Assembly (NCBI GenBank): GCA_018819225.1
Contig: JAHJQN010000004.1
Span: 194,813-258,812 of the forward strand
Length of the DNA stretch: 64,000 nt
Reading direction: 5' to 3'
Source of the DNA: Candidatus Micrarchaeota archaeon
GTDB lineage: Archaea; Micrarchaeota; Micrarchaeia; Norongarragalinales; SBBD01
The translations under genes were made by a program, and so were the position numbers. Positions 47,678-61,603 of this stretch are shown here, one piece after another. The notes below the pieces were generated by a model. That model ran no database searches. It had not been told where the DNA came from and was given only the letters and a program-made list of their open reading frames with translations. How positions within the stretch are numbered: position 1 is the first letter of the stretch; every line of letters starts with the position of its first letter.

Positions 47678-47749
47678 TTCAGTAAGTGGATAGGGTCCTT
47701 CGTCTTTGCAAAGGGCCTCTTTCAACTTTTTTGGTTTTATGGGATCTTT

Positions 47750-48055: not shown

Positions 48056-48060
48056 TTTAC

Positions 48061-48108
48061 GGGGGTAGAGGCGACCCGCGTAGGGGGTGGAACCCCCTGG
48101 AGGGGTCC
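48061..48108 (+). ncRNA. GC-rich structured element copy 2 (GGGGGTAGAGGCGACCCGCGTAGGGGGTGGAACCCCCTGGAGGGGTCC)
   Basis: Same architecture as 6305-6353; second hairpin AGGGGGT-GGA-ACCCCCT carries two compensatory pair changes relative to copy 1. Confidence 0.45.
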
Positions 48109-48114
48109 GCAGAT

Positions 48115-48168
48115 ATCATGCGCATCCGCATTCCTGATAGCGTCCACGTCGAAATGTTGCTTAACTGA
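48115..48168 (+). pseudogene. displaced duplicate of the S10 gene 3' end (last 17 codons + stop)
   Basis: 41 nt identical to 48003-48043, then ATG TTG CTT AAC TGA versus ATG CTT CTA AAC TAG: same peptide IMRIRIPDSVHVEMLLN* with synonymous changes only; out of frame with rps10. Confidence 0.7.
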
Positions 48169-48198: not shown

Positions 48199-48735
48199 CT
48201 ACTTCTTTTCGTTCATCAGCTTCTGGACGACATCATCCGACGTCGTGAAGCGGGCAAACTTTTCAGACTCCTTGACCTCCACGGCTTTCTTTCCCGCTTT
48301 TTTCTCGGGAGTCCTCGAGAAATAGAAGAGCAACGTTGCCGCGGAAACGGAGAACAATAGGAGTGAAAGCGTGAGGTTCAACTGGGCTTTCGAGCCCATT
48401 CCTAACGGTTCCTCCTCCTCACCCAAAATGTCATTTAACTGGGATTGCGCCTCCACGAGCTTGTCATACGCTTCCTGCTGTCGTCCCTGCGCTTTCAATA
48501 GTTTCGCGTGCGCCAGCAACACCTCCACTTCCGTTATTTGCTCGCCGCTATCTTTTGCCGCGCGTATAGCGGATTCGACTTCCACTTGCGTTTCCTGAAG
48601 CTCTTCAGCAGTCAACGCCCCCGTCAATGAAAGGCGACCTCCTCCAGGAGTTGCAATATACGCGTCATAGATCAAATAGAGTCCTGCAAATGAGGAGAGG
48701 AAGAAGAATATCAGCACGACGCTTTTGACGTTCAT
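48199..48735 (-). CDS. membrane protein with N- and C-terminal TM helices and coiled-coil/TPR-like middle
   Basis: Hydrophobic segments at residues ~6-24 and ~115-135; last gene of the giant-protein co-directional set. Confidence 0.45.
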   Translation of the reverse strand: MNVKSVVLIFFFLSSFAGLYLIYDAYIATPGGGRLSLTGALTAEELQETQVEVESAIRAAKDSGEQITEVEVLLAHAKLLKAQGRQQEAYDKLVEAQSQLNDILGEEEEPLGMGSKAQLNLTLSLLLFSVSAATLLFYFSRTPEKKAGKKAVEVKESEKFARFTTSDDVVQKLMNEKK

Positions 48736-48739
48736 GGCC

Positions 48740-49357
48740 TTACCCGCACTCGAGTGTTGAAATCATGTAGTCGGCTAGCTCCAAATCAGGGGCCAGCGGT
48801 TCAGAGATCGCTGCCGTGAACACGATCCAGTAGCTCGGGCACTCGTAAAACGCCTCTCTAACGAAAATAGTCTGGCCATCTACTGCTAGCTCGTCGTTTT
48901 CAATGGTAGTCATGTAGAGTTTGCGGCCGCGCTGTTCATATTCCGTCAATACGACGCCTTCACTTGTTGCTGACGCGCGAATCAATTGAGGAGTGAGTTC
49001 GTCTGGTCTCAAAATGCGTAGATCCATGATCTCGGATGAAAACGGGGGATAGAATGCCGCAATTCGCAAACGAATCGTGAATGCGGGTTCTAATTGAATG
49101 GAATACCCAACGGGATAACGAATGCGGTACCCGTAATCAGGATCGTAATAGGAAATGGTTTTTGATGCATATTTTTCATCCAGTTTCGGTAATTGTTCCA
49201 AACGCATCTCCTGAACAGACTCTGTGGCAACCGGAATGCGCTCCACCAGTTGTTGAGGAGCAGTATAAAGAGAGTAAGCAAAATAACCAAACACAATAAC
49301 CAACACAACCACTAGGAATACGTTCAAGAACGCTGAGGTTTTATGTTTCAAAGGCAT
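48740..49357 (-). CDS. N-terminally anchored membrane protein with extracytoplasmic domain
   Basis: TM FLNVFLVVVLVIVFGYFAYSL then 175-aa soluble domain; 4-nt gap to next gene. Confidence 0.45.
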   Translation of the reverse strand: MPLKHKTSAFLNVFLVVVLVIVFGYFAYSLYTAPQQLVERIPVATESVQEMRLEQLPKLDEKYASKTISYYDPDYGYRIRYPVGYSIQLEPAFTIRLRIAAFYPPFSSEIMDLRILRPDELTPQLIRASATSEGVVLTEYEQRGRKLYMTTIENDELAVDGQTIFVREAFYECPSYWIVFTAAISEPLAPDLELADYMISTLECG

Positions 49358-49405
49358 TTATGGATCCCTTATCGAAAAGTCATAATGTAATTGTTGGTAA
49401 TAAAA

Positions 49406-49681
49406 CTATCTTCTCACTTCAAACGAAGAAAAAGAACCCGTTGGTTCTGAATACGTCACGGAAGCATCTTGGACGTGCACGTAACCATCTTGAATCTTAA
49501 TCGCATCAACTAAATGCTTCAAAGCGTTTTCCTCTCCCTCCGCTTGGATTTCCACACGGCCGTCAGACAAATTCCTTACAAAACCTGCTACTGGAAAACG
49601 AGCTGCAATGCGTAAAACAGAATAACGATATCCAACTCCTTGAACGCTCCCCGAAACAATAACATGAACCGCTTTATTCAT
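49406..49681 (-). CDS. acyP: acylphosphatase
   Basis: VSGSVQGVGYRYSV...GFVRNLSDGRVEI acylphosphatase signatures. Confidence 0.8.
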   Translation of the reverse strand: MNKAVHVIVSGSVQGVGYRYSVLRIAARFPVAGFVRNLSDGRVEIQAEGEENALKHLVDAIKIQDGYVHVQDASVTYSEPTGSFSSFEVRR

Positions 49682-49692
49682 TTTCTCACGCG

Positions 49693-50496
49693 TTACTCAT
49701 GATGAACAGGGGGCATATGTTGTTGTAATAACCGCATTAATTCTTCATTCACTCCTCTTTGAATGCGCGCGGTCCCCCTTCCTTGCTGACGAGCCTCCTG
49801 ACTTGCCGCTAAATTTCCGATTTCATGCTGAGCCGTGTTCAATTGCTCTAACATTCTTTTAAGTACTCGATTGCGTTTATAAACTTCTAAAAACGATTGA
49901 CCCATCTCGACCCCGTGATTATTGATTATCGATCGTACGTTACGACGAACAGTAAAGAAATTGGTTTTACCCACAAAGGCGTTAACGAGATACGATTGGT
50001 TCTGGTGAGCACGACTTCTTACGGGACCCAAATCCGCTTGAACCGCTGCCTTGAACAAATCAGGATTTCTACGCAAATTTCCAGCGATTTCCGAATACTT
50101 GTCCACGATGCGCTGAACTTCCGTTAATTGGGTTCCTCGAAGTCCATGAAGTGCGCGTTGAAATTCAGCTGCGCGGGAAGCAAAATACTCGTAATCGCCT
50201 GCCGCCATTCGACTCGCCTCATTCACGTGATGCTCAGTACCAAACGTACGACCTAGACCTCGAAACATCTGGTTGTGAAGGGCTTGCCACTCTTCATTCG
50301 TGCTTGCTATGCTGTGCAAATCATGTTGAATGACGCTTCGGCGACGTCTCCCGAACCCGAAAAGCCTTCCGAGACGGCCAAAAACTCCCGTACGCGATTG
50401 CGGCACCTCCATTTCTTCCGTGTGCAACTTCAACCGCGTCGGTGGACGCGCCCCTTCTTCAAGGGGGCCATGATACTGGACCCGTGCTCTAGCCAT
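49693..50496 (-). CDS. hypothetical alpha-helical protein downstream of giant gene
   Basis: 267 aa, no TM, Arg/Gln-rich helical; 10-nt spacing to neighbours. Confidence 0.45.
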   Translation of the reverse strand: MARARVQYHGPLEEGARPPTRLKLHTEEMEVPQSRTGVFGRLGRLFGFGRRRRSVIQHDLHSIASTNEEWQALHNQMFRGLGRTFGTEHHVNEASRMAAGDYEYFASRAAEFQRALHGLRGTQLTEVQRIVDKYSEIAGNLRRNPDLFKAAVQADLGPVRSRAHQNQSYLVNAFVGKTNFFTVRRNVRSIINNHGVEMGQSFLEVYKRNRVLKRMLEQLNTAQHEIGNLAASQEARQQGRGTARIQRGVNEELMRLLQQHMPPVHHE

Positions 50497-50506
50497 ATCG
50501 AATCAC

Positions 50507-51190
50507 TTACGGAGCGGCCCCTCCTCCTGCAGGCGGAATTCTTCTAGAGCGTAGCTTCCGCATCCTTGAATCGCTTTGTTGGGCATATGCGCGAAGTAAA
50601 TCCAAAGCTTCTCGAGCAGCATGCCTTCTTGGAATTTCTGCGTTAATGCTTCGAGCCAGCAAATCAGGATTCTCAGTTAAAAATTTCTCTACCGTATGTC
50701 CGGAATATTCTTCACTTCGACCCGAATCCACCAATCGTTTAGCAATGGCATTGGCTCGGCTAGTAAATACCTGCTGAAAATGGCTATAACGAGTGGCCGG
50801 CAAACGTCGACTCACCATGACCTCGTGAAGTGCAGCTAAAGTTTCTCTACGCGGATCGCCGTGTCGAAGCTCATCACGCATACTCTCAATAGTCATATGA
50901 TCTCCCGCCACCCATGCACGCAGGACGTCCATGGTACGCCGCGTTTTTATCATATCTCGACGCGATCCAAAAACAGTTTCAACAACGGGCTCCAGATTCA
51001 TAGCTGGTTCTCGAGCAATTTTCTGAAGGACCGGTAATATCTGAGATTGATGCACAGTTGGATCCGTATTCAATAACTCTCTTGCTTCTTTAAAGGGATA
51101 AAGTGCTCTCCGTTTACCTCGTGCGCTTAGTTCTCCTTCCCGAGAGATCATTCGTTCACGCATTTGTTTCGGACCGGAAGGGGTCGCCAT
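50507..51190 (-). CDS. hypothetical alpha-helical protein immediately downstream of giant gene
   Basis: 227 aa, no TM, Arg-rich; 11 nt after giant-gene stop. Confidence 0.45.
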   Translation of the reverse strand: MATPSGPKQMRERMISREGELSARGKRRALYPFKEARELLNTDPTVHQSQILPVLQKIAREPAMNLEPVVETVFGSRRDMIKTRRTMDVLRAWVAGDHMTIESMRDELRHGDPRRETLAALHEVMVSRRLPATRYSHFQQVFTSRANAIAKRLVDSGRSEEYSGHTVEKFLTENPDLLARSINAEIPRRHAAREALDLLRAYAQQSDSRMRKLRSRRIPPAGGGAAP

Positions 51191-51201
51191 TCTACTTCAC
51201 C

Positions 51202-54200
51202 TCATGGTTCAATGGGAACTCCTGCGGATTGTCGCAGGGTGTTCAATGCTTCAGGATACTTCGTATCATCAAACTGTTTTTGCGCCACAGGAATCGCGTC
51301 TTCCACAGCCTGCGGGCATCCATCGTTGATACACCATTCGCGGAAACGCTTTAATAAAGCCTCCACTGCCTCTTTCGGCGATGCTGGAACCAAAGTCACT
51401 GCGTTCGTAACCGTTGCACCCGTGACCGTCGTGAAAACAGGTGAACGGAAGTCCAGTGGATCCGAGTAAGAATGAACAAGAGAAGGATCGGGAACAAACG
51501 AAGAGGCAACAGGAACATTAGGATCAAACATCGACGTAATGAAATAATCAGGGGACACTCCTTTGTTGAAAGAGGTCACTAAATTGTATTGAGGAATTCC
51601 GGCCAAAACCGTTCCTTCAGTAAGATAAAGGCACGCGTGTTCGGAATCCGGACACAATTCTTCCGTGTCCACCCGGTTCGCGCATTCATTCAAATCCTTT
51701 TCATTGCGGAAACAGTATTCTTTCATGGAAGCGGCTTGGCCTTCCTCATTATGGTATACGACGAGATGGTTCCCGAAACGGTAATCCAATTCAGCGCGCA
51801 CGGGACGCACTTCCGTGTAAAACAGCAAGGGCGCAACCAGTGATCCTATCAAGCTGATACCCCGGAAACTTTTCTTTGTAAACGACGACTCCTTAACTGC
51901 GTTCCCAACGGAGCGGAAACGTCCGGAGCGGGAACGAACCGCATCGAAATCATCGGCAAGCGTTTTGGATGCTTGTTCAACGGCATCGTCGAATTTAGTC
52001 AGGGTTCTAGCTTTCGTGGCGCGATCGCGTACGTGCTCAATGATTGCGCGTTCTTCCGTATTTGTCAATGCGCCACCCAAAGCATTCCGCAGTTTACCGT
52101 TCAATGAAGTGCGAACAAATCTGCCACTTCCGCCTTTGATTTCATTGACGGCCACTTCATCGTAATTGCGCAATACGTTTGCAAGTTCGTCGGGGGTGAG
52201 AATGCGTCTGAAATCGAGGTCAATAGGTCCTGCAGTTTGAGAATATAATTTCCATAATTCATCCGACACCGCTGACGGTCGGGCATCGCTCCTAAGGAAA
52301 GCAGATAACGTTTCCGATTTTCCATATAAATTATAATTTGGAGGCAGACGATTATTAATTAATTCATCCACTACTTTTTCTCGTATATTTGGATCCCTAT
52401 CAAGGGCGGTGAATAAACTTCTAATCTTGGTATTGAATTGATCTTGCGTCGGGGCTATTGTCCGAGATACGTCGGTGAGTTCATTATAGAGCGTCGTACG
52501 AGTTCCGGGTGCGGTAAGATCCACCCAGGCATTCATTCGCGCCCGTCCGTCCGCTCCAGAAAGGAGTTGAGTGAAATCATTGACGCTGCTTCTTGGCACA
52601 AGAGCAGTTTCTCCCGGGGTATGAATCAAGTTGACGAGCGCACGAGAAATCGTTGAGGAACTAATCGTGCCGCCGGCTGTTTGGGTATAACGAGTGACCA
52701 AAGCGTCCGCGAATTCAAGCGACATGCCTTGGTGCATGAAGTAATCGGTCATAAACGCTCGGCTGCCGAACGGACGGAATACTTTGGAAGCGCCCGCCAC
52801 AATGGGAACCGTAGCAGGAGTAATACCTGGTGCGAACTCGCTATCTAGGACCGTATTCGAGCCTCCGAGAATGGCACTTAATGCACCAGTAACCGCCAAA
52901 TTACCGATCAATTCATTACCTCCTCGACGTGCCACCTGACTGGCAAATGTACTAGAGAGTAAGCCGCTGGCTCCAGTTATTGAATTGACTCCAGGAACAG
53001 CACCGGTTGGAAGAACCAAGTTAAGATAGAAATCAGTTAGAGCAAATGTTTGGAACGAAATACATGCATTGATTCCTTCGCATATTCCGACGCGTGAAGG
53101 CGCAAGGGAATCAACGGCAATGGATGCGGTACAACCCGTGATTCCGGTAACCAAGCTGTAAACGCCCTGCGCAAGACGAGGGGCGAATACGGGAGCGGCA
53201 AAAATGCTTCCGACAATTGCGACTAATGCGCCCGGAGCACCAGCTAATAATAATGCACCGGTTGCTTTTCCTCCGTTTTCAATGCAGGCACCCGTATCTT
53301 CGAATGGAACCGCCTGTGATAAGGGGTAATCGTTGTATCCGTAAAGGGTGTTCAACAGCAAATCGGCGTGCCGTTCATCATCCGCGCTGGGCGCTTCGCG
53401 GTATGGACCAATAGAGAATATGCGGAATTTTTCAAAAAATCCAGTATCCCCTTCCCGTTTCTTATTGGTCCAAATAATGTGCGGATTCGGTTCTCTTCCA
53501 ATGATGACTTCCGGCGTGTCCGCGGTCAACAGGTTCGTGTTGTACAATTTTTCCTCGCATGCAAGAAAACGAGTTGGAGAAGGCAAAGAGCTGTCCACAT
53601 GCATTTCAATGAATGAAGATTTCAACCACTCCTCCTTATTAGGTCGTAGCTCACATAGACCCAGGCGCGCAGTTGCAATGTAAATACCGCATTGATCGGC
53701 AGTACCCGTTGCAGTATATTTGATTGATTTCTTGCCGCCGACAAAACCGAATTCACCTAAACCTTCTTGGAAAGCGGTTTGAAGATCGTTCAAATTGATT
53801 TTCGTGTTCGCCATTTGAACGACAACGCTTTTACGGTAATCGCGGTTGAATGCGCGAACAACGGGATCGGATGGATTGCAGAACTTATTGAGCTCTTCAT
53901 TGAATTTTTCGTCTTCTTGTGTATAGAAGGTTGTTATGAGTTGAGCCACTTGTGCTCCGAATCCCTTGAAAGCTGCTTTCGCCTCATCTGCAGTGCAGAA
54001 GTTTGTGGAACAGGGTATGACCGCGTCAGCCACTCGAATAATCCCTGACGGAACAACAGAAACTGGAGTGGTTGGAGCACTTGCAGGCGGAACAGATGGT
54101 GCAGAATGTGCCGGCACTGCTGGTGCGGGTGTTCCCGGGGGCACACCACTCGCAGGCGTTAATGATGGAGGCATAGCGGGTGGATCGCGGAGTATAAGAT

Positions 54201-57200
54201 CCCCAAGCGGTGTGCCGGAAAAGAGGTTTTTCATAGCAGGGTTCGCGGGATCGATTTCATACGATTCAACATTTACGAACTTGGAGTCCGTTTTTCCGTT
54301 GATGGATCCTTTGAACTTGATCTCCATGTATCCACTCCACGGGCGCAGAGACTCGCATTCTGAAATATAGCCTTCTCCGGCACGCAACGAAGTGGGAATG
54401 TCGCATCGTAAGAAACCGGTTCCGTTAGCGGAATAGGTTTGATAGTTAAGCGTCACCGACTCATCGAGATTGTTGGCCATGGAAATCCATCGCTTGTGAC
54501 CCAAATCCTTGAACACCAGTTTTTGGGGCGCCGTGGTTTTCACGTTTTGTTGCGAGCGGTCATAATTTACGTAGAAACCACCCAGCGCGTCTCGAAGTTG
54601 AGCGCGAAGAGAGCCTACGCACGAACCGGTTTTCTCGAAGGTGAGAATCAGTTTAGCGGGAACGAATTGCGCGCCGCTTCCCCGGTAATCATAAAATATT
54701 TTGACGTCGCCTTCCAAGGGACCGAGTTCATCCAACTTCTCTTGAGGCAACAAACAGCCATCATCATCCGTATACTGTTGAGGTACTTGAACCGAGAACA
54801 AGAATTGCTGCACCTGGCAAGCCGCATCCTCATTCTTATCCTGTTGGGCTTTACCCGCCAGAATCATGTGCGCGCCTTCATCCCAAGCGCTGGGTTTGCG
54901 AATCTTTCGAATCACGCCCTCCAACTCGGAACTAATGGACTCGCCAGAAAGCGCGTTACGGCTTTCCGCAGTCCAGCTCTTCTCGTCCTCATCACCGGAA
55001 ATATCCATGTAAACGCTTACTTCCGAAGGAGCGTCATTCAATACGCAGAATCCTTTCTCCACGATTCCTTCCACGTTCGAATCCGTGAACTCAAAGGTTT
55101 GCTCCTTGGGCTTGATGCGAATGGGCACGAAATTATCGGTAATCATGGCGAAGCCATCCGGATTGCGGGATGGACGCTCGCATAAAATCAAGGTAGTCTT
55201 CGAATCGGCGGGAACGGAGATCTGCTGGGGTTCGTCCTTCTCTTTCGGAAACGGATTCATGTCAGAGAACCAAATCTCTTTCACTTGAGGCAATTGATAA
55301 CTCGTTTCGCCGCGGACATTGATTTGTATTTCGCGGCACCCCTGCAAGTCAACGCGTTTCGTCATGCTATGGATTTCCGTGCTCACCTCCGGCGCGTCCT
55401 CAGGCAATAAGTATACGACGTCATCCGTGAACGTGGCGTGGAACTTGTATTTCTTGTCCGTATCCTGGCAGATGCGCGTCACGAACCGCGTGTCGACCGG
55501 AATGGAGAACGTGACCGCGTCTTCCGTTTCATCCGCTTTTTCGACGTCATCCGCCATCAAACGCATGCCATTGAATTCAAACAAATCATTCTCCGCGTTG
55601 TCTTCCATTGCGAGCTCCGTGCAAATGCTCAAGCGGTAAGACTGCATGATGTCGCCATTCTTTTCGAACGGTTCCTCAAGGAACTTGTCGAATGTTTCTT
55701 GCGGAACATTCACGTCCACATCATTCGGGAAGTGATGAAAAACAAAGTCAACGCCTTGCAAGCCCGCAAGGTCCTCATCGATCATGACGAACGTGATGGG
55801 AACATTGCGTTCCACGAACAAATCCTTGTACGGTTCAGCGGCTTGCAATACCGGTCGGAAGGGAAGCTCAACGTTGTAACTGTACGTCGTAACCGCGTTC
55901 TTGACCACGCGGGCGTTCACCGGAAAGTGCAAGACGACATCCTGCGGGAACGTGACCGTAAAGCGGTCCTCCCCGAAGCGTTGTTCCTCTTCCTGTAACA
56001 TGCTGTAATCGAATACGATGGACACGGATGGCGGTACTTTGAGGTCGCGGCGTTCGCCGAATTCCTCATCTTCAATCGAAGCGCCTTTGACGAGCATGCG
56101 TTGGTTGGACGGGAATTCTAACAGATGGCGGTCATCCTTTACGCTATAGCGCGCGTTGACGTTGAACGGCAACGTCATGTCGAAACCGACTGGCAAGCGC
56201 TTTTCATTACCCGTCATGCCAAAGTCAGGGCGACCGAAAATAATTTGAGTGAGAGGCATGACTTCGACCGTCCGGGAACCGTCCGGCGCTTTCAAGCCCG
56301 CACGAGCGACTCCGTTCAAGAAACTCATTTCCAGGTAATCCGTGGAAATGCTTTTCGCGCGCACGCCATCCGGAGCAATATTCAAGGATACTTCAGGGCC
56401 GTCGCGTACCAAGAATAGGACGCGGAAAGGCAGGCTCAGAACGATCTCGCCGTTATAGGTTCGTAATGCGAACGGCGATGGAATGCGCAAGGCACTACCG
56501 GCTGGAATCGTGACGCGTTTGAAATCACGCGCGTCCATTGAAATAATGGCATCGGAAGGCAACGAAATCGTGTTTCCGCTTTGGAATTGAAGGGCTTTTC
56601 CTCCGCTAAAACTGTCTTTCTTGACGCGAATGAATTCCTCGATGATGAACGTGGCTTCAACGGGGAACTCGACTTCTAAAGCGTCTTGAGAGGAAATGAT
56701 GGGCGTCAACGAAATCTGAATGGGTTGGTGCGCGTTGACGCGGACGCGGCGTTCTTCACCCGAATAGGGGCGATATTGAGTGGAACTCGTCGGGTACTTG
56801 ATGTCGAAATCGTTGATGGAAGCCGTTTCAAAAGCCCCTTCGCGAGCAAACTCGGTTTCCGTTGGGAAATCGAGGTATACGACGACGGGCAAGCGGAGTT
56901 CCCAACCGTATTGCATGAAGTTGCGCTGGTAAGGCGATAGGTAACTACGGTACGTATTGTAACCTTGCACGGGAATGCGTCGCGCATAGCGGGCGGGAAC
57001 TTCAAAGAAAGCGCCGGAAGGAATGACGGCCACTAGACTGCCGCCTCCTTGCTCGATGGAAAACGTGAAGGTGCTCGAGTAAGGCGAGGATTGTTGCAAA
57101 TCGTTGAGATCTCCCACGCGAACGTCTGCATCAAACAGCATGGTGTCCCCGCTCGGAAGCTCAATGAAAGTCGAGCCATCCGGATTAGTATGCGTAAGCG

Positions 57201-60200
57201 TATTGGGAGGCAATTGCAAGACGATTTGCATGGGAAGCGATATGCGCACGCCTCCACTCACGCTTTTCACTTCGGGTTCGACGGCTTGGCAAGTGTGATC
57301 AATGGCGGCCTCGCTTTCTCCGCATTCGAGGAACTCGCACACTCCCGAAGAACAGATTTCATCATTGGAACATTCATCATCGGCAACACAGCCGGGTTCA
57401 GGGGTCGGAGTGAACGTGACTCCTGCCGGATAGATTTCCACGCGAGTGGAAAGGCAAGCGAGATTGCCGGCTTGTGCGCGAACCTCGTAACGACCCTTCG
57501 AACTGTAGTAACAGGAGGCCGTGCAGCTACCCGTGGTTCCCGTGCAACTCACGGCATTGGATGTGCGGCCGTTACCGCAATTTACGACAACGACGTTTGG
57601 GGCGCGATTCAAGTCATAATAGTCAACAGTAATGGTACTCGTCCCTTCTTCCTCAATGCGGTTCGGATCCGCATTTAATGCACAAGTGGGTACTAACGGA
57701 GTGGGAACCGGAGTCGGCGTCACGAATTCCGTTGGTTCGGGAGTTGACGTCGGATCCTCATCGCCCGCATGCACGTCCCTGCAATTTTCGGATGAAGACG
57801 CGGTATACGTAAGTCCGACGCGCTTGCGGGACGTGATTCCGAGCGTGCTCGCGTAAAGCGTTAATGTACCGTCGCGTTCATCGTCCTCTAGATCGCACGG
57901 ATCCACGGGATACGCGCGCGCCACCACCTTAAATTCCGCTGAATCCCCTGCGGCAATGGTTTGCGAAAGCGGTTCCATGTATACGTTGGAGAGCGTGCTC
58001 TGGTAATTGATGAGAATGGGATAATCGGCGTCGTTGGTAACGACCATGGTTTGCGTGTCACGGGGTTCGCGAGGCGGTTTCAAGGTAAACTGCAGGGAAT
58101 CAGCTGAAGCAGACCACAACGCCTCCAAGTCCTGTTGGGTAAACGAAGAGGCGATCGTGAACGGAACGGATTCCTCTTGGTCGTAGCTGCCCAAGCGAGC
58201 TCGTACGAGGAGGCGGCCGGAAACGGTTTCGGATAGAGTGTTCGCACGAGCTGCAACGGGCAAAATAGTATCGAGAATGCGGGCTCGCAAATTGATGGAT
58301 TGGGTATCGCGCGCTTTCAAACGGAAGGAGGAAAGGTCGACGGATACGTCCGTATACTGGGGGTTGCGTCCAAACTGCATTTGAACGGAAACGCGTACTT
58401 CATTATCCAATAGGTTAGTGACGCTGAAACCTTGTTCTTGATTGTCGGTCGAATCAACGGTTAATGACAAGGTTTCCCCTTCCACGGAAATGAGTTCATC
58501 GCCAGTGACGCGCAGGAAACCGCGTTTGACCTTAAAGCCTTCGGCCTCGACCTGGTAGGTGACGGTCCCGATCGCGACGGGGTGAATGCCTTCCACGCGG
58601 TACTGGGCACTGCCATCCCGACCCTCGGAAAAAACGCCTTCAATGATGGCGCCGCGGAGGGCATCATTCCCGTTTCCAACGGATACGTAGGCATGAGAAA
58701 CCGGCAGCCCCAATGAATCTTCGACGGCAAACGTCACCATGTTGTCTTGAAGTGCTTGCAATGAAGACGGACGATTCGTCACTTTGAGATCGGGTTTGGT
58801 GCCGACCACGCGGACGTACAGCGAACGAGTGATCACGGTTTCCGCGTTGCGTACTTGAAGCTGCAATGCCACGTCATTCGAGAGACGCTGGGCTTGAATC
58901 AAGAACTGGCCTTCCGCATTGTCTTCAGAAGTCGTAATAGTGATCAGTTCCTGATCGCCTGCGGAACGCGCCACCGCGCGACTTCCACCGGATGAACCTT
59001 CCGTTAACGTGATCGATTCGTCGAGAGCAGATGAAGAAAGCTCGACCACGGTTCCTCTTGGAGCCGCTACGTGGAATTGAAGCGAAAAGGTTTCGCGAAT
59101 TTCCGCCTCATAATTATCCAAAGCGCGCCCATTTTGTCCTTCGAAGAAGTAATCCAAACAAAGATCGTCTTCACATAATCCACCAAATGAAATGGGTGCG
59201 GTAATCGTTTTCATGTTCGCGAGAATGGAAGATGTCGAAGCGGTTTCGTCGAGGGGATCGCGAAGGGTTTCGCGCGCGGTGTCGAAAGCCGAACGGTATT
59301 GCAACATAGCCGTTCCATCGGAAACCGCTTTGGTTCGCACAAACACCGCGATTTCCTTCGTGCCTTCAAACGGTTGGAACGTGAAATGAACGTATTTATA
59401 CGCGGGCTGGAATTCCGGATCCGCGAACTCCAATTCCTCCGCAGGCGTCGGGGAAGGCGTTTCCGTAGGGACATCCGTAACGATAACGGGGGACAAATCG
59501 TATAACGTTCCTTTTGTGACGAAAGCCGTGCCGGCTTCGTAACCAACGATTTCAACGAGCTCGTTATCCAGCGAAGAATCCGCTGAACCGACGCGCACGT
59601 GAACTTCAGCCCTTGAAACGTCGACATTGGGGCGAGTCAACAAGAATTTGGCTTTGTAAACCGTTGAAGGCGATAACGAAGAGGCTTTGTTGCTCTTCAA
59701 ATCATACAATCCCTGGAAAACGATTTGCGATCCTCGGGCGCCGGAAGGCAGCAGTTCAAACGAATCCCGATTCGTGATCCCGGGAATGACTTCAAATTCA
59801 GACGATAGCAAGGTTTCATACCCTTCCAGGGAAACGCGAGCAACATAAAACCCTTCCAAGATATCCACCGCGCATTTACCGCGTTCCGTGACGCACGAAT
59901 CCTCTTTAATAAACGTTCCGCCGGAAAACGATAATTCAACGAGGGCACCATCCAGAGATTGATTCGTAAAGTAATCATAAACGGAGACGACGAGCTTGGC
60001 TTTTCCGGGCTGCAAGATCACTTCAATCAAGTTGACTTCAGGTTCTTCCCCGGTTCCGTCAATCGAAATCAATTCCGGATTACTTTTTCCTTCCCGGCCC
60101 GCGAAACTGGCTTTGACAAAAATGCGTTCCAACGGAACATCGGGAAAATCAGCGGATCCATCGGCGGACGTGAACTTTTCGGAGATGCCCATGGGTTTCC

Positions 60201-61563
60201 CGTTCTCCCAGAATAATCCAACCGAAGCCTCGGGAATCGATTCCAGGGATTGGTCAATCACATTCACTTCCACTAACGCCGAATTTTCGTCGTTCGCCTT
60301 AACTAAAACCATTTCGTAACGTTCTCCGCGACGCGCCTCTTCAACGAACGCCGGAAGGAAACCGAACTTGTAAGCCGTAACATAATAGGTTCCGGGGTCC
60401 ACGTTCTCGAATGCGGCCGAGCCATTGCTCGGAATCTGTTCCTCAATGCGAGCCCCCTTGCTGTCATAAAGCCGCACAATCGGGTTCAACACATGGGTGC
60501 CGCCTTCATCGTTCACTTGAACCATGATGGACCGCTGAGCCGACTCGGGAATCGCGTGCAATGAGAGTTCAATAACCGTATCCTTTTCCACGAACACGGG
60601 AATGGAGGATAAGGACTCAAAACCGGCCGCTCGCGCGGATACGATGATGCGGGTGCCCAACAGAACGTCTTGAACCGGAATCCGGCCGTTTTCTCCGGTG
60701 AGGAGATTCGTATACAAGGCCTTTCCAGAAATGGCATCTGCAATGTCTACGCTGGCATTCGCAATGCTTTCATCGTTCGCGTCATCCGATACCAGGACGC
60801 GGACTTTTCCCAAAACGTCTCGATCCTTCGGAAGCAAAACAAAGGGCGTGAAGACCTCGTCACGCGTCCCAACCGAAATTTCACGGGAATCGTCAACGTA
60901 CCCTTCAGCGGAAACAATGATTTTATACGTGTTTTCGGGCTCGACTTCAAACGTCACCGATGAACCGGATTTTGAATCCTGAACGGGCACCAGCGTATCG
61001 GAATCCACGATCCAGAAAACCGCCGAAGGCGGGCCTTGAACCGACAAACTGATGCTCACGGTTTGTTTAACGACTTCTTCCACTAAACGTAAAGAAACAA
61101 TGTTATCGGAAGCGTCTTTCTCGATGGTCACGGTCTTACCCGCCGTAGAAAACTCGAGCGTTTCCTCATCCGAATTCAATGCCGAAATGCGGAACGTGAC
61201 CCCGATCGGCACATTCGAAAAAAAGGCGACGCCCTCGGAATCCGTGATGCCCTCCAATCGTTCGTGAATGCCTTCCGTGTCCACCAAATAAACGGCGGCA
61301 TTGATGACGGGAAATCCGTCGGCCGTCTGAATTTCGATGGCGACGTCCGATTGCTGAGGCCCTAACAGCGCGGTCCCCCCCAGTAAAAAGAATCCGGCGC
61401 CGCCGATCAGAAGCAGCAATATTAAAACAAACGCGGGTAGCGACGGAATGCCTTTTTCTTCAAGGGTTTCGGCAACGCTCTTGAACGGCAGTCCTTTTTC
61501 CTCGCTCCAATCCAAGAAATTGGCCCAACCATCCTGGATTTTTTCAAATAAGTCTTCTAGCAT
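51202..61563 (-). CDS. giant (3453 aa) signal-anchored multidomain surface protein: CarboxypepD_reg/Ig-like repeat array, Cys-rich modules, Pro-rich linker, ~950-aa C-terminal module with glycine-zipper hydrophobic segment
   Basis: Single uninterrupted frame of 10.4 kb; N-terminal cytoplasmic acidic 40 aa then TM (LPAFVLILLLLIGGAGFFLLGGTALLG); >=6 repeats of the DG.P...A.V.L.D..G....TD..G.A.F..V..G.Y pattern; PT-rich linkers; DPPAMPPSLTPASGVPPGTPAPAVPAHSAPSVPPASAPTTP linker; GALLLAGAPGALVAIVGSIFAAPVFAP GxxxG-rich segment. Confidence 0.8.
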   Translation of the reverse strand: MLEDLFEKIQDGWANFLDWSEEKGLPFKSVAETLEEKGIPSLPAFVLILLLLIGGAGFFLLGGTALLGPQQSDVAIEIQTADGFPVINAAVYLVDTEGIHERLEGITDSEGVAFFSNVPIGVTFRISALNSDEETLEFSTAGKTVTIEKDASDNIVSLRLVEEVVKQTVSISLSVQGPPSAVFWIVDSDTLVPVQDSKSGSSVTFEVEPENTYKIIVSAEGYVDDSREISVGTRDEVFTPFVLLPKDRDVLGKVRVLVSDDANDESIANASVDIADAISGKALYTNLLTGENGRIPVQDVLLGTRIIVSARAAGFESLSSIPVFVEKDTVIELSLHAIPESAQRSIMVQVNDEGGTHVLNPIVRLYDSKGARIEEQIPSNGSAAFENVDPGTYYVTAYKFGFLPAFVEEARRGERYEMVLVKANDENSALVEVNVIDQSLESIPEASVGLFWENGKPMGISEKFTSADGSADFPDVPLERIFVKASFAGREGKSNPELISIDGTGEEPEVNLIEVILQPGKAKLVVSVYDYFTNQSLDGALVELSFSGGTFIKEDSCVTERGKCAVDILEGFYVARVSLEGYETLLSSEFEVIPGITNRDSFELLPSGARGSQIVFQGLYDLKSNKASSLSPSTVYKAKFLLTRPNVDVSRAEVHVRVGSADSSLDNELVEIVGYEAGTAFVTKGTLYDLSPVIVTDVPTETPSPTPAEELEFADPEFQPAYKYVHFTFQPFEGTKEIAVFVRTKAVSDGTAMLQYRSAFDTARETLRDPLDETASTSSILANMKTITAPISFGGLCEDDLCLDYFFEGQNGRALDNYEAEIRETFSLQFHVAAPRGTVVELSSSALDESITLTEGSSGGSRAVARSAGDQELITITTSEDNAEGQFLIQAQRLSNDVALQLQVRNAETVITRSLYVRVVGTKPDLKVTNRPSSLQALQDNMVTFAVEDSLGLPVSHAYVSVGNGNDALRGAIIEGVFSEGRDGSAQYRVEGIHPVAIGTVTYQVEAEGFKVKRGFLRVTGDELISVEGETLSLTVDSTDNQEQGFSVTNLLDNEVRVSVQMQFGRNPQYTDVSVDLSSFRLKARDTQSINLRARILDTILPVAARANTLSETVSGRLLVRARLGSYDQEESVPFTIASSFTQQDLEALWSASADSLQFTLKPPREPRDTQTMVVTNDADYPILINYQSTLSNVYMEPLSQTIAAGDSAEFKVVARAYPVDPCDLEDDERDGTLTLYASTLGITSRKRVGLTYTASSSENCRDVHAGDEDPTSTPEPTEFVTPTPVPTPLVPTCALNADPNRIEEEGTSTITVDYYDLNRAPNVVVVNCGNGRTSNAVSCTGTTGSCTASCYYSSKGRYEVRAQAGNLACLSTRVEIYPAGVTFTPTPEPGCVADDECSNDEICSSGVCEFLECGESEAAIDHTCQAVEPEVKSVSGGVRISLPMQIVLQLPPNTLTHTNPDGSTFIELPSGDTMLFDADVRVGDLNDLQQSSPYSSTFTFSIEQGGGSLVAVIPSGAFFEVPARYARRIPVQGYNTYRSYLSPYQRNFMQYGWELRLPVVVYLDFPTETEFAREGAFETASINDFDIKYPTSSTQYRPYSGEERRVRVNAHQPIQISLTPIISSQDALEVEFPVEATFIIEEFIRVKKDSFSGGKALQFQSGNTISLPSDAIISMDARDFKRVTIPAGSALRIPSPFALRTYNGEIVLSLPFRVLFLVRDGPEVSLNIAPDGVRAKSISTDYLEMSFLNGVARAGLKAPDGSRTVEVMPLTQIIFGRPDFGMTGNEKRLPVGFDMTLPFNVNARYSVKDDRHLLEFPSNQRMLVKGASIEDEEFGERRDLKVPPSVSIVFDYSMLQEEEQRFGEDRFTVTFPQDVVLHFPVNARVVKNAVTTYSYNVELPFRPVLQAAEPYKDLFVERNVPITFVMIDEDLAGLQGVDFVFHHFPNDVDVNVPQETFDKFLEEPFEKNGDIMQSYRLSICTELAMEDNAENDLFEFNGMRLMADDVEKADETEDAVTFSIPVDTRFVTRICQDTDKKYKFHATFTDDVVYLLPEDAPEVSTEIHSMTKRVDLQGCREIQINVRGETSYQLPQVKEIWFSDMNPFPKEKDEPQQISVPADSKTTLILCERPSRNPDGFAMITDNFVPIRIKPKEQTFEFTDSNVEGIVEKGFCVLNDAPSEVSVYMDISGDEDEKSWTAESRNALSGESISSELEGVIRKIRKPSAWDEGAHMILAGKAQQDKNEDAACQVQQFLFSVQVPQQYTDDDGCLLPQEKLDELGPLEGDVKIFYDYRGSGAQFVPAKLILTFEKTGSCVGSLRAQLRDALGGFYVNYDRSQQNVKTTAPQKLVFKDLGHKRWISMANNLDESVTLNYQTYSANGTGFLRCDIPTSLRAGEGYISECESLRPWSGYMEIKFKGSINGKTDSKFVNVESYEIDPANPAMKNLFSGTPLGDLILRDPPAMPPSLTPASGVPPGTPAPAVPAHSAPSVPPASAPTTPVSVVPSGIIRVADAVIPCSTNFCTADEAKAAFKGFGAQVAQLITTFYTQEDEKFNEELNKFCNPSDPVVRAFNRDYRKSVVVQMANTKINLNDLQTAFQEGLGEFGFVGGKKSIKYTATGTADQCGIYIATARLGLCELRPNKEEWLKSSFIEMHVDSSLPSPTRFLACEEKLYNTNLLTADTPEVIIGREPNPHIIWTNKKREGDTGFFEKFRIFSIGPYREAPSADDERHADLLLNTLYGYNDYPLSQAVPFEDTGACIENGGKATGALLLAGAPGALVAIVGSIFAAPVFAPRLAQGVYSLVTGITGCTASIAVDSLAPSRVGICEGINACISFQTFALTDFYLNLVLPTGAVPGVNSITGASGLLSSTFASQVARRGGNELIGNLAVTGALSAILGGSNTVLDSEFAPGITPATVPIVAGASKVFRPFGSRAFMTDYFMHQGMSLEFADALVTRYTQTAGGTISSSTISRALVNLIHTPGETALVPRSSVNDFTQLLSGADGRARMNAWVDLTAPGTRTTLYNELTDVSRTIAPTQDQFNTKIRSLFTALDRDPNIREKVVDELINNRLPPNYNLYGKSETLSAFLRSDARPSAVSDELWKLYSQTAGPIDLDFRRILTPDELANVLRNYDEVAVNEIKGGSGRFVRTSLNGKLRNALGGALTNTEERAIIEHVRDRATKARTLTKFDDAVEQASKTLADDFDAVRSRSGRFRSVGNAVKESSFTKKSFRGISLIGSLVAPLLFYTEVRPVRAELDYRFGNHLVVYHNEEGQAASMKEYCFRNEKDLNECANRVDTEELCPDSEHACLYLTEGTVLAGIPQYNLVTSFNKGVSPDYFITSMFDPNVPVASSFVPDPSLVHSYSDPLDFRSPVFTTVTGATVTNAVTLVPASPKEAVEALLKRFREWCINDGCPQAVEDAIPVAQKQFDDTKYPEALNTLRQSAGVPIEP

Positions 61564-61595: not shown

Positions 61596-61603
61596 TATTT
61601 AAA
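61596..61603 (-). promoter_or_regulatory. TATA-box-like element upstream of giant gene
   Basis: TTTAAATA on minus strand ~35 nt upstream of the ATG at 61563. Confidence 0.3.

What the first reader, a model, noticed from the sequence alone, without database searches (positions are those of the whole stretch)
48199..61563. Co-directional gene set: giant 3453-aa surface protein plus five tightly spaced downstream genes (candidate undescribed surface or delivery system)
Six minus-strand genes are separated by only 4-48 nt. They are the giant gene (51202-61563), two soluble helical unknowns of 227 and 267 aa, an acylphosphatase, an N-anchored membrane protein, and a two-TM coiled-coil membrane protein. 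Gene sets of the form 'giant multidomain extracellular protein plus small downstream partners' recall polymorphic-toxin/immunity or adhesin/accessory loci, but none of the partners matches known immunity or chaperone families. The set is delimited upstream by a Zn-ribbon/ATP-cone gene pair and downstream by the rps10 duplication and GC-rich element region.
Basis: partly seen in the sequence, partly recalled or inferred. Interest (0 to 1): 0.8.

Follow-up and report, generated by a model that had tools for sequence, protein, structure and literature searches.

The report
Giant archaeal surface protein and partner
A tiny symbiotic-type archaeon (Micrarchaeota) encodes a real 3,453-residue membrane-anchored surface protein from a large, undescribed family of giant proteins, but only one of its five small downstream neighbours, a membrane-anchored PsbP-fold protein, stays with it across relatives, so this is a two-gene core rather than a six-gene system.

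Summary
The six minus-strand ORFs and their 4-48 nt gaps are exactly as described. The giant ORF is not an assembly chimera: two assemblers give identical sequence, and five end-to-end collinear orthologues exist. The host is a Candidatus Micrarchaeota (DPANN) archaeon, and the locus lies in core chromosome.

Thirteen related loci show unequal conservation:
- **267-aa basic protein and acylphosphatase:** present in one clade only. The 267-aa gene is inverted in three loci.
- **178-aa protein:** confined to the closest relatives.
- **227-aa protein:** barely conserved.

The giant has a conserved ~45-residue N-terminal head (…EEKGIPSLP) followed by one membrane helix. This head marks at least 800 protein clusters, mostly 2,000-3,600 aa. 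Next comes a β-sandwich stalk, then about 2,800 residues with no known domain.

I found no toxin, enzyme or secretion component. The best reading is a putative cell-contact surface protein with a dedicated extracytoplasmic accessory subunit. The function itself is inferred. Interest is moderate.

The parts
51202..61563 (-). Giant gene: 3453 aa, 378 kDa, pI 4.6. A type-II-anchored cell-surface protein.
   Evidence: The ORF is. A 100% identical database entry is annotated as a hypothetical protein of a Ca. Micrarchaeota archaeon. Orthologues are collinear from end to end.
61596..61603 (-). TTTAAATA box 40 nt upstream of the giant's ATG, preceded by a T-run. A candidate archaeal TATA box, so the giant gene may have its own promoter.
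   Evidence: Read directly from the sequence. Its function is inferred, not tested.
61432..61563 (-). N-terminal 'head', residues 1-44: W-x2-[FL]LDW-x2-EKG[LI]P-x8-LEEKGIPSLP. Acidic and presumably cytoplasmic.
   Evidence: It aligns across P0001-P0009. A profile of the head plus the membrane helix finds 800 cluster representatives at E<=1e-3, always at the protein's N-terminus. It matches no Pfam family.
61366..61431 (-). Single N-terminal transmembrane helix, residues about 45-66.
   Evidence: Kyte-Doolittle peak of 2.64. The helix is conserved in all homologues.
57781..61365 (-). Conserved ectodomain stalk, residues about 67-1261. Its first ~600 residues are CarboxypepD_reg / SpaA / Big_1-type beta-sandwich domains.
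   Evidence: Pfam PF13620 at E 4e-15, with PF17802 and PF02369 below their curated cut-offs. This is the best-conserved part among homologues, at 32-48% identity.
57253..57780 (-). Lineage-specific insertion rich in Cys and Thr/Pro, residues about 1262-1437.
   Evidence: Cys positions are. The segment is absent from most orthologues in the six-sequence alignment. It is shared with L011 and P0031.
54196..57252 (-). Central region of about 1,000 residues (1438-2456) with no recognisable domain.
   Evidence: No Pfam hit and no PDB sequence hit. It is conserved at 30-37% identity in full-length orthologues.
52744..54195 (-). Pro-rich linker (residues 2457-2510) followed by a conserved Cys-containing module. 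The module includes a Gly/Ala-rich hydrophobic stretch (2766-2930) that carries conserved cysteines.
   Evidence: Alignment of five orthologues, hydropathy and invariant Cys columns. The AF2 model of residues 2500-3453 failed at pLDDT 34.
51859..52743 (-). Variable, charged, Cys-free, probably helical segment, residues about 2941-3235. An indel hot spot.
   Evidence: Poorly aligned and of variable length among orthologues. It is almost absent from the L020 orthologue.
51205..51858 (-). Conserved C-terminal domain, residues about 3236-3453: P-L-LF-x-[DE]-[VM]-RPV-x-A-x-LDYR motif plus six conserved Cys. There is no C-terminal membrane anchor or sorting signal.
   Evidence: Conserved in P0002, L010, L011, L012, L018, L020, L021 and P0031. 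C-termini were inspected.
50507..51190 (-). 227-aa basic (pI 10.8) soluble protein, 11 nt after the giant's stop codon. Poorly conserved.
   Evidence: No family hit. A local HMM finds only the three sequences it was built from: the window, the L011 208-aa protein and the N-terminal half of a 457-aa minus-strand protein in L010. It is absent from L020, L003 and L012.
49693..50496 (-). 267-aa basic (pI 10.8) soluble helical protein with an N-terminal basic motif (R-x2-R-x-[FW]G-x3-RRR-x-V-x2-[DE]L). A clade-specific neighbour of the giant's 3' end.
   Evidence: Homologues are co-directional in L011 and L020 and on the opposite strand in L003, L012 and L015. No significant known-family match was found. 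The best hits are a phasin at E 0.0013 (far below its cut-off) and apolipophorin-III at E 0.15.
49406..49681 (-). Acylphosphatase, 91 aa. The catalytic-loop motif GSVQGVGYR and the following R-N are present.
   Evidence: PF00708 at E 3.5e-22 and NCBIfam. Retained between the giant and p205 genes in L003, L010, L011, L012 and L020; also next to p205 in L015 and L019, where no giant gene is visible. Absent from L004, L006, L008, L018 and L021.
49398..49405 (-). TTTTATTA box, starting 48 nt before the p205 ATG. A candidate internal promoter for p205 and p178.
   Evidence: Read directly from the sequence. Inferred only.
48740..49357 (-). p205: an N-terminal membrane anchor plus an acidic ectodomain of about 140 residues with a PsbP/Mog1-like fold. 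It has the invariant motif YPxGY, invariant E109 and D191, and a Cys173/Cys204 pair. This is the conserved partner of the giant protein.
48199..48735 (-). p178: a membrane protein with two hydrophobic segments, a long helical E/Q/A-rich loop and a conserved C-tail EKFARFTT-x-DDV. It starts 4 nt after p205.
   Evidence: Hydropathy is. Homologues occur only in L010 (39% identity), L020 (35%) and, as a shorter form, L011.

Best explanation
The locus encodes a giant (378 kDa) cell-surface protein of a Micrarchaeota (DPANN) archaeon, together with one dedicated accessory subunit.

**The giant protein.** A conserved ~45-residue acidic head and a single transmembrane helix hold its N-terminus in the cytoplasmic membrane. 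A stalk of beta-sandwich (CarboxypepD_reg/Ig-like) domains follows. It carries about 2,800 residues of cysteine-paired ectodomain with no known relatives, and I infer that this part projects away from the cell. The protein belongs to a very large, uncharacterised family of DPANN giant proteins that share the N-terminal head.

**The partner.** p205 is tethered to the same membrane by an N-terminal helix. It exposes a PsbP/Mog1-fold domain, a fold that elsewhere works as an extrinsic protein-docking subunit, chaperone or immunity protein. The most likely role is to bind the giant ectodomain at the outer face of the membrane, as an assembly, stabilising or docking factor.

**The other four genes.**
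- p267 is a clade-specific neighbour. It is a basic cytoplasmic helical protein, possibly membrane-peripheral.
- The acylphosphatase is clade-specific and most likely an ordinary housekeeping enzyme caught in a syntenic block.
- p178 and p227 are restricted to close relatives.

**What is shown and what is inferred.**
- Shown: gene structure, family membership, co-conservation, and the fold of p205.
- Inferred: extracellular topology, physical interaction between p205 and the giant, and a role in cell-cell (host) contact. The last rests on analogy with other giant surface proteins of episymbiotic DPANN/CPR organisms.
For: **The gene is real and chromosomal.**
- Two assemblers give identical sequence.
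- Collinear orthologues of 3,220-3,657 aa exist.
- The neighbourhood is core genome: A-type ATPase, ribosomal proteins, SecY, Suf and EF1A.

**Surface topology.**
- A single N-terminal hydrophobic helix is conserved in all homologues.
- Beta-sandwich domains lie in residues 80-600.
- There are 44 Cys, many of them invariant among orthologues, and the pI is 4.6.

**Family.** The N-head profile finds 800 representatives at E<=1e-3 and 389 at <=1e-10, always at residue ~1. Of the top 150, 83 are >=1,500 aa. Sources name them Micrarchaeota or 'archaeon' 'carboxypeptidase-like regulatory domain-containing protein'.

**The partner p205.**
- Homologues lie directly after the giant gene, with gaps of 2-63 nt, in L004, L006, L008, L018 and L021.
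- They lie two to six genes downstream, on the same strand, in the window, L003, L010, L011, L012 and L020.
- In L015 and L019 no giant gene is visible upstream of the p205 gene, because the contig ends first.
- p205 identity falls from 50% to 21% roughly in step with giant identity (48% to 32%) while all other neighbours change.
- Only 9 clusters of the family were found among 5.8 billion proteins, and every one whose context I examined lies in such a locus.
- An invariant Cys pair and acidic pI fit an extracytoplasmic location.
Against: - No experiment or interaction model links p205 to the giant physically.
- The giant has no recognisable adhesin head, lectin or enzyme domain beyond generic beta-sandwiches, so 'host contact' is an analogy.
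- The C-terminal third could not be modelled (pLDDT 34). Its Gly/Ala-rich hydrophobic stretch could be membrane-active, which would change the topology.
- In six loci of one clade the acylphosphatase and the p267-family gene also persist. They may therefore matter more than I allow.
- All the evidence comes from metagenome assemblies of uncultured organisms.
Confidence: 0.55

Rival explanations
1. Envelope-scaffold reading. The giant is a structural component of the Micrarchaeota cell envelope, such as an S-layer-associated stalk or spacer, rather than a host-contact protein. p205 would be its assembly factor.
For: - It is N-terminally anchored, with a long chain of beta-sandwich modules.
- The family is very widespread and often present in several tandem copies per genome.
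- The locus lies in core chromosome.
Against: - The S-layer protein shown experimentally for a Micrarchaeon is a different, ~101 kDa protein with a PF05123 domain (10.1101/2021.04.28.441871). The giant has no such domain.
- Lineage-specific insertions and indel hot spots and paralogue arrays look more like fast-evolving interaction proteins than a lattice protein.
Confidence: 0.2
2. Polymorphic toxin / immunity-like reading. The giant's C-terminal part is an effector delivered to or inserted into a neighbouring cell. A downstream gene protects the producer: either p205, whose fold is shared with the T6SS immunity proteins Tsi3 and TplEi, or the variable p227.
For: - The giant has a Gly/Ala-rich hydrophobic stretch near its C-terminus.
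- The gene immediately downstream (p227) is the least conserved of the set.
Against: - The C-terminal domain is conserved, not swapped, among orthologues from different lineages.
- No toxin, Rhs, PT-domain or pre-toxin motif was found in Pfam, NCBIfam, PADLOC or PDB.
- p205 is best matched by PsbP itself, and the fold is functionally promiscuous.
- p205 is membrane-anchored outside the cell and co-diverges smoothly with the whole giant. There are no arrays of orphan immunity genes.
Confidence: 0.08
3. All six genes form one co-transcribed surface or delivery system.
For: - The gaps of 10-11 nt between the giant, p227, p267 and the acylphosphatase leave no intergenic room for promoters.
- L020 keeps five of the six genes in the same order and orientation, and L011 keeps a comparable set.
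Against: - p227 is missing in L020, L003 and L012.
- p267 is inverted in L003, L012 and L015.
- The acylphosphatase and p267 are absent from L004, L006, L008, L018 and L021.
- p178 occurs in only four loci.
- Toxin-antitoxin modules are inserted inside the block in L012.
- The same close relatives also share unrelated flanking genes (epimerase and Zn-ribbon upstream; rps10 and EF1A downstream). Most of the order is therefore plain synteny.
Confidence: 0.07
4. No functional link at all. Every downstream gene, including p205, is an unrelated neighbour kept by chance synteny.
For: All loci are from one part of the DPANN tree, and functional data are absent.
Against: p205 adjacency survives divergence down to 21-29% identity, while every other neighbour is replaced. 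It becomes tighter (2-63 nt) in the most distant loci. The family is not seen elsewhere.
Confidence: 0.07

Closest known systems
SPEARE proteins of Nanohaloarchaeota (Hamm et al. 2019, PMC6642349)
   Same: Multi-thousand-residue, mostly extracytoplasmic, membrane-anchored proteins of DPANN archaea. They are proposed to mediate attachment to a host, and often occur in several copies per genome.
   Different: - SPEARE proteins are defined by serine-protease, laminin-G/adhesion and intracellular type III restriction-enzyme domains, and they usually have a C-terminal anchor.
- The present protein has none of those domains.
- It has an N-terminal anchor with a distinctive head motif, and a conserved small partner.
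- It is not a member of that family.
PsbP / Mog1 / DUF1795-like fold proteins (PsbP, PnsL1, LpqN, DcrB, Tsi3, TplEi, Eag chaperones)
   Different: - There is no detectable sequence relationship: no Pfam, NCBIfam or PDB profile hit.
- It has a transmembrane anchor instead of a transit peptide or lipobox.
- It has its own invariant motif set (YPxGY, E109, D191, Cys pair).
- It is archaeal and tied to a giant surface protein.
Large extracellular proteins of other episymbiotic lineages: lytic-transglycosylase giants of Woese-/Pacearchaeota (PMC8204110), giant proteins of Vampirococcus (PMC8080830) and giant genes of Omnitrophota (10.1101/2023.11.21.568195)
   Same: The general theme is the same. 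Organisms with ultra-small or predatory lifestyles spend a sizeable fraction of the genome on giant surface proteins thought to contact other cells.
   Different: Those proteins carry identifiable enzymatic or adhesion domains, or are bacterial. None is reported with this N-terminal head or a PsbP-fold partner. I did not read the Vampirococcus or Omnitrophota papers in full, so that part of the comparison is general.
Polymorphic toxin systems (Rhs, CDI, MafB and similar)
   Same: A very large exported protein followed by small genes. One downstream product has a fold also used by T6SS immunity proteins.
   Different: The C-terminus is conserved rather than polymorphic, and there is no toxin or pre-toxin domain. 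No secretion-system genes were found in the scanned parts of the window, and no immunity arrays were seen in the window or the fetched loci.
Micrarchaeota S-layer protein SLP_Mh (10.1101/2021.04.28.441871)
   Same: A surface protein of the same phylum, with an N-terminal hydrophobic segment.
   Different: SLP_Mh is ~101 kDa, has a PF05123 S-layer domain and is highly abundant. It is unrelated to the giant by domain content.

Membership tests
DPANN 'N-head' giant surface proteins (uncharacterised; defined here) | Conserved head motif (…[FL]LDW…EKG[LI]P…EEKGIPSLP) at residue 1, followed directly by one TM helix | tested here: met
   The window protein is the top hit of the profile, at 98.3 bits over residues 1-65. 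Alignments are; hydropathy is.
DPANN 'N-head' giant surface proteins (uncharacterised; defined here) | Beta-sandwich (CarboxypepD_reg/Ig-like) stalk after the anchor, and a total length of thousands of residues | tested here: met
   PF13620 at E 4e-15 plus SpaA and Big_1 in residues 80-600. All six orthologues match PF13620. Of the top 150 head-bearing proteins, 83 are >=1,500 aa.
Giant + p205 two-gene module | A p205-family gene on the same strand, downstream of the giant gene | tested here: met
   Seen in the window plus L003, L004, L006, L008, L010, L011, L012, L018, L020 and L021. L015 and L019 are too short to show the giant gene.
PsbP/Mog1/DUF1795-like fold (for p205) | Three-dimensional fold similarity to solved members | tested here: met
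PsbP family proper (Pfam PsbP) or DUF1795 | Sequence-profile match to the family model | tested here: not met
   No Pfam or NCBIfam hit at E<=0.1. The profile against PDB sequences gives nothing significant.
Polymorphic toxin systems | Variable C-terminal toxin domain on a conserved delivery body | tested here: not met
   The last ~220 residues are conserved in P0002, P0031, L010, L011, L012, L018, L020 and L021.
Polymorphic toxin systems | Recognisable toxin, pre-toxin or Rhs/CDI-type domains | tested here: not met
   Pfam on the whole protein, on ten segments and on six orthologues, plus NCBIfam, PADLOC and PDB, all found none.
Polymorphic toxin systems | Cognate immunity gene immediately downstream that binds the toxin domain | not testable with these tools
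   p227 is immediately downstream and variable. p205 has an immunity-like fold. No binding test or complex prediction was available.
SPEARE proteins | Serine protease, laminin-G/adhesion and type III restriction-enzyme domains, usually with a C-terminal anchor | tested here: not met
   None of these domains is present. The anchor is N-terminal. The definition is from PMC6642349.
Archaeal S-layer protein of Micrarchaeota (SLP_Mh type) | PF05123 S-layer domain, size ~100 kDa | tested here: not met
   No PF05123 hit and a mass of 378 kDa.
Acylphosphatase (for the 91-aa gene) | PF00708 match above the gathering score, plus the catalytic loop Arg and Asn | tested here: met
   78.9 bits against a cut-off of 22.5. 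VSGSVQGVGYRY and VRN are seen in the translation. The role of these residues is from my general knowledge of the family.
Type IV pilin-like (class III signal peptide) substrates | Short leader ending [KR]-G, with cleavage before a hydrophobic stretch whose first residues are small or hydrophobic | tested here: inconclusive
   The head ends …EEKG|IPSLP, followed by the TM helix. However, the leader is 38 residues long and conserved, and Pro occupies +2 and +5, which does not fit the usual pattern as I recall it. T2SSE/T2SSF genes neighbour only the distant giants in L007 and L009. None was seen in the scanned parts of the window.
Single operon of six genes | Co-directional order conserved across relatives | tested here: not met
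   p267 is inverted in L003, L012 and L015. p227, p178, the acylphosphatase and p267 are missing from various loci. Co-transcription in this organism was not testable.

The most novel reading that the evidence does not exclude
The conserved N-terminal head (…EEKGIPSLP followed by a TM helix) may be a previously undescribed sorting or anchoring signal. It would mark a whole class of at least 800 clusters of DPANN giant surface proteins for a dedicated biogenesis route.

The pointers are:
- In two distant lineages, a miniature archaeosortase-like membrane protein with Cys, Arg and His motifs is encoded directly upstream of the giant gene, beside a type IV pilus-like ATPase and, in L007, a platform-like gene.
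- Those two giants lack any C-terminal sorting signal.

In this subfamily, the PsbP-fold partner p205 would then be the extracytoplasmic receptor or chaperone of the system. If true, this would be an N-terminal, mirror-image analogue of the exosortase/archaeosortase C-terminal signals, specific to ultra-small symbiotic archaea.
Probability: 0.12. Interest if true: 0.8.

Novelty: new variant of a known kind. Interest (0 to 1): 0.45.

Why it matters
DPANN archaea are thought to live attached to other cells, yet the molecules that make contact are almost unknown outside the Nanohaloarchaeota. This work turns a single odd locus into three testable things:
- a sequence signature, the N-terminal head, that retrieves hundreds of giant surface proteins across Micrarchaeota, Diapherotrites and unclassified archaeal MAGs;
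- a minimal conserved pair, the giant plus a PsbP-fold membrane-anchored partner, that could be expressed, modelled or localised in cultured Micrarchaeota;
- a clear statement of which neighbours can be ignored.

It also gives a new archaeal context for the PsbP/Mog1 fold as an extracytoplasmic docking module. The function remains inferred, so the value is as a lead rather than a result.

Tried and rejected
- **C-terminal model.** An AF2 model of giant residues 2500-3453, with a two-sequence alignment, reached only pLDDT 34 and pTM 0.25. It was unusable, and no fold search was run on it.
- **p227 and p267 as tandem paralogues.** I suspected this from a shared 'NPxxF' patch. hhalign gave 4% probability, so I rejected it.
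- **Wider p227 and p267 families.** Local HMMs found only their training members. The 305-aa gene after p205 in L004 is not a detectable p267 relative.
- **Known-family searches on the small proteins and the giant's C-terminal third.** Pfam, NCBIfam, PADLOC and PHROGs gave nothing beyond the acylphosphatase. PDB sequence and profile searches also gave nothing significant. That includes the giant alone, its six-orthologue profile, and the p205 and p267 profiles.
- **Internal repeats in the giant.** BLAST self-comparison found none, and there are no tandem DNA repeats.
- **Locus searches.** The search for related loci with the seven-sequence p205 alignment was too divergent to seed. The four-sequence alignment worked but reaches only close relatives.
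- **Unavailable or unsuitable tools.** The AFDB Foldseek library was not available. I did not use the sigma-70 promoter/terminator scanner, because the organism is an archaeon, and read the intergenic sequences directly instead.
- **S-layer identity.** Rejected on domain content and size.
- **Multi-pass topology.** I considered a second membrane passage at residues 2766-2930 and 3237-3256. I think it unlikely, because those stretches are Gly/Ala/Ser-rich, only moderately hydrophobic in orthologues, and carry invariant cysteines. It is not excluded.

Full report
**1. The observation**

| Gene | Coordinates | Length (aa) |
|---|---|---|
| giant | 51202-61563 | 3453 |
| p227 | 50507-51190 | 227 |
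| p267 | 49693-50496 | 267 |
| acylphosphatase | 49406-49681 | 91 |
| p205 | 48740-49357 | 205 |
| p178 | 48199-48735 | 178 |

- The gaps between them are 11, 10, 11, 48 and 4 nt.
- The co-directional run does not stop at the giant gene. The Zn-ribbon, ATP-cone, epimerase and one more gene upstream are also on the minus strand, at 76, 6, -32 and 44 nt. The only visible upstream boundary is a T-run and a TTTAAATA box 40 nt before the giant's ATG. A weaker TTTTATTA box lies in the 48-nt gap before p205.
- The ORF at 47375-48034 (-) is an antisense shadow of EF1A and rps10.

**2. Organism and reality of the giant gene**

- The giant protein is 100% identical to a hypothetical protein of a Candidatus Micrarchaeota archaeon MAG.
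- The window is core archaeal chromosome: A-type ATPase, a ribosomal-protein cluster, SecY, Suf, aIF2-gamma, EF1A and intron-bearing tRNAs.
- The same six genes appear with 100% nucleotide identity in a 709-kb MEGAHIT contig and in a Logan contig.
- End-to-end collinear orthologues of 3,220-3,657 aa come from other samples: P0002, P0031, P0081, P0094 and P0095. An assembly chimera is therefore very unlikely. Long-read confirmation is still missing.

**3. Anatomy of the giant**

- Residues 1-44 form a conserved acidic head, W-x2-[FL]LDW-x2-EKG[LI]P-x8-LEEKGIPSLP. A single strongly hydrophobic helix follows directly.
- Residues ~80-600 match CarboxypepD_reg, SpaA and Big_1 beta-sandwich models. 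Residues 650-3453 match nothing in Pfam, NCBIfam, PADLOC or PDB sequences, even with a six-orthologue profile; PHROGs was run only on residues 2500-3453 and also found nothing.
- The first ~1,260 residues are the best conserved part (32-48% identity).
- Residues 1262-1437 are a Cys- and Thr/Pro-rich insertion shared by only a few orthologues.
- A Pro-rich linker (residues 2457-2510) precedes a Cys-containing module with a Gly/Ala-rich hydrophobic stretch.
- Residues ~2941-3235 are a variable, charged, Cys-free indel hot spot. This segment is nearly absent from the L020 orthologue.
- The last ~220 residues are a conserved domain with an RPV-x-A-x-LDYR motif and six conserved Cys.
- There is no C-terminal anchor or sorting signal.
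- The protein is acidic (pI 4.6), with many conserved cysteines, which fits an extracytoplasmic location.
- An AF2 model of residues 2500-3453 failed at pLDDT 34.

**4. The giant belongs to a large family**

- A profile of the head plus helix was searched against 1.84 billion cluster representatives. It found 800 proteins at E<=1e-3 and 389 at <=1e-10, in every case at the very N-terminus.
- Of the best 150, 83 are >=1,500 aa and 66 are >=2,000 aa. Most of the short ones are probably contig-end fragments.
- Where named, they are 'carboxypeptidase-like regulatory domain-containing protein' of Micrarchaeota or unclassified archaeon MAGs; P0006 comes from a Diapherotrites MAG.
- Related genomes carry several such genes in tandem.
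- I found no description of this head motif or family in the papers searched. That is a limited search, not proof of absence.

**5. Test of co-conservation**

I compared 13 independent loci including the window. G is the giant gene, G2 and G3 are further giant genes, and (-) marks a gene on the opposite strand.

| Locus | Gene order |
|---|---|
| window | G - p227 - p267 - AcyP - p205 - p178 |
| L020 | G - p267 - AcyP - p205 - p178 |
| L011 | G - 208 aa (weak p227 counterpart) - p267 - AcyP - p205 - short 2-TM protein |
| L010 | G - 569 aa (-) - 457 aa (-) - AcyP - p205 - p178 |
| L003 | G - p267 (-) - AcyP - p205 - TauE (-) - 73 aa - G2 |
| L012 | G - p267-fusion (-) - AcyP - toxin-antitoxin inserts - p205 - toxin-antitoxin - 67 aa - G2 - G3 |
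| L015 | … p267 (-) - AcyP - p205 - 66 aa - G2 |
| L019 | AcyP - p205 (short contig) |
| L018 | G - p205, adjacent |
| L021 | G - p205, adjacent |
| L004 | G - p205, adjacent |
| L006 | G - p205, adjacent |
| L008 | G - p205, adjacent |

- **p205** is linked to the giant gene, on the same strand, in all 11 loci where the giant gene is visible. The link is tightest (2-63 nt) in the most divergent loci. Its identity to the window protein falls from 50% to 21%, roughly in step with the giant's.
- **The p205 family is tiny.** Only 9 clusters turned up in a profile search of 5.8 billion proteins, and every one whose context I examined lies in such a locus.
- **p267 and the acylphosphatase** persist in one clade only. 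p267 changes strand between two sub-clades.
- **p178** occurs only in the four closest loci.
- **p227** has only two weak counterparts and is absent even from L020.
- The close relatives also share unrelated flanking genes: epimerase and Zn-ribbon upstream, rps10 and EF1A downstream. Much of the six-gene order is therefore simple synteny.

**6. What the partners are**

- **p205.** It has an N-terminal anchor helix and an acidic ectodomain with invariant YPxGY, E109, D191 and a Cys173/Cys204 pair.
  - With a nine-sequence alignment, AF2 gives pLDDT 86.8.
  - No sequence-level relationship is detectable.
  - From general knowledge of these families, the fold is a versatile protein-docking module. 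It serves as extrinsic subunits of membrane complexes, envelope-biogenesis factors, T6SS immunity proteins and chaperones of effector TM helices.
- **p227 and p267.** Both are very basic (pI 10.8), have no hydrophobic segments and match no family. The best hits are a phasin at E 0.0013 (far below its cut-off), apolipophorin-III at E 0.15 and syntaxin at E 0.04, which suggests at most an amphipathic helical bundle. They are not detectably related to each other.
- **The acylphosphatase.** It is canonical and retains its catalytic-loop motif.
- **p178.** It has two hydrophobic segments flanking a long helical loop and a conserved C-tail.

**7. Mechanism**

The best-supported reading (confidence 0.55) has these steps:
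- The giant is a type-II-anchored surface protein. Its beta-sandwich stalk projects a large, novel ectodomain.
- p205, tethered beside it, docks on that ectodomain as an assembly, stabilising or docking subunit.
- A role in contact with another cell is inferred only by analogy with other giant surface proteins of DPANN and CPR organisms (PMC6642349, PMC8204110).

Rivals:
- An envelope-scaffold role (0.2). The known Micrarchaeota S-layer protein is a different, 101-kDa PF05123 protein.
- A polymorphic toxin/immunity arrangement (0.08). This is contradicted by the conserved C-terminus and the lack of any toxin domain.
- The original six-gene system (0.07).
- No functional link at all (0.07).

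**8. Unexpected side observation**

- In two distant N-head giants, P0006 in L007 and P0009 in L009, the gene directly upstream encodes a miniature archaeosortase-like membrane protein. It is 216 or 179 aa long, matches PF09721 at E 5e-6 or 1e-5, and has recognisable Cys, Arg and His motifs.
- A T2SSE ATPase gene lies beside it in both loci, and a weak T2SSF-like gene in L007. Neither giant has a C-terminal sorting signal.
- This raises the possibility that the head, with its 'GIPSLP' box just before the helix, is a processing or sorting signal.
- No such gene was found in the window or the closer loci, and I could not extend the census. I give this 0.12.

**9. Verdict**

- What is really there is a conserved two-gene module: a giant N-head surface protein plus a PsbP-fold membrane-anchored partner. 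It is embedded in a clade-specific syntenic block in the core chromosome of a Micrarchaeon.
- It is a new variant of a known kind, the giant surface proteins of ultra-small symbiotic prokaryotes. It has a newly recognised family signature and partner.
- Interest is moderate (0.45). It is a useful lead for DPANN cell-surface biology, but the function is not demonstrated and there is no sign of a novel delivery machine.

Noticed in passing
window 47999-48166: The last 55 nt of rps10 (47999-48053) are repeated at 48112-48166 with 93% identity. A 58-nt GC-rich insert lies between the copies. The independent Logan contig ends at 48127, inside this structure. It may be the scar of an insertion or integration at the rps10 3' end.
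   Followed up: partly
L007:7280-7930 and L009:7417-7956: Miniature archaeosortase/exosortase-like membrane proteins (216 and 179 aa; PF09721 at E 5e-6 and 1e-5; Cys, Arg and His motifs) are encoded directly upstream of distant N-head giant genes. A type IV pilus-like T2SSE ATPase gene lies beside them in both loci, and a weak T2SSF-like gene in L007. Those giants have no C-terminal sorting signal.
   Followed up: partly
L012, L003, L004, L016 (whole loci): N-head giant genes occur in tandem arrays in relatives. L012 has two within the fetched stretch (a 2471-aa gene and a 1634-aa gene cut by the locus end) downstream of its 3417-aa giant, itself an N-head protein (P0095). L003 has two, plus a 236-aa miniature version at 6494-7204. 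L004 has two, and L016 at least two. In L003, L012 and L015 the p205 gene is followed by a second giant gene, with a conserved 66-73-aa two-helix membrane protein between them; in L003 and L012 it thus lies between two giant genes.
   Followed up: partly
L012:8551-9785 and 10876-11528: Toxin-antitoxin modules (HepT/MNT, Fic and RHH-PIN) are inserted on both sides of the p205 homologue. The acylphosphatase-p205 junction therefore tolerates insertions.
   Followed up: no
window 6045-6174 (-), 7458-7557 (+), 7674-7790 (+): Rfam detects three tRNA genes of 100-130 nt, which are presumably intron-bearing. ARAGORN finds none of them.
   Followed up: no
window 1-4000: GC content is 34-37%, against about 50% in the rest of the window. 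The genes here include a 2'-5' RNA ligase/metallophosphatase fusion (644-1864) and a CBS+CAP-domain protein (2980-3948). This may be foreign or otherwise atypical DNA.
   Followed up: no
window ~2000-7200: An OapC origin-associated protein gene lies at 6521-7105, and the cumulative GC skew reaches its minimum at about 2-6 kb. A replication origin may be nearby.
   Followed up: no
window 47375-48034 (-): This 219-aa ORF is an antisense shadow of EF1A and rps10. Its apparent conservation in L010 and L011 only reflects those genes on the other strand.
   Followed up: yes
L006:18672-22596 and L008:9549-11881: In the two loci where p205 directly follows the giant gene, a conserved string comes next: a DUF424 gene and five small, very hydrophobic membrane proteins of 84-159 aa. 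None of these lies next to the window's giant gene.
   Followed up: no
window 57253-57780 and 51859-52743 (giant residues 1262-1437 and 2941-3235): The giant has two plastic regions. One is a Cys-rich insertion present in only a few orthologues. The other is a charged helical segment whose length varies greatly and which is almost absent from L020.
   Followed up: partly
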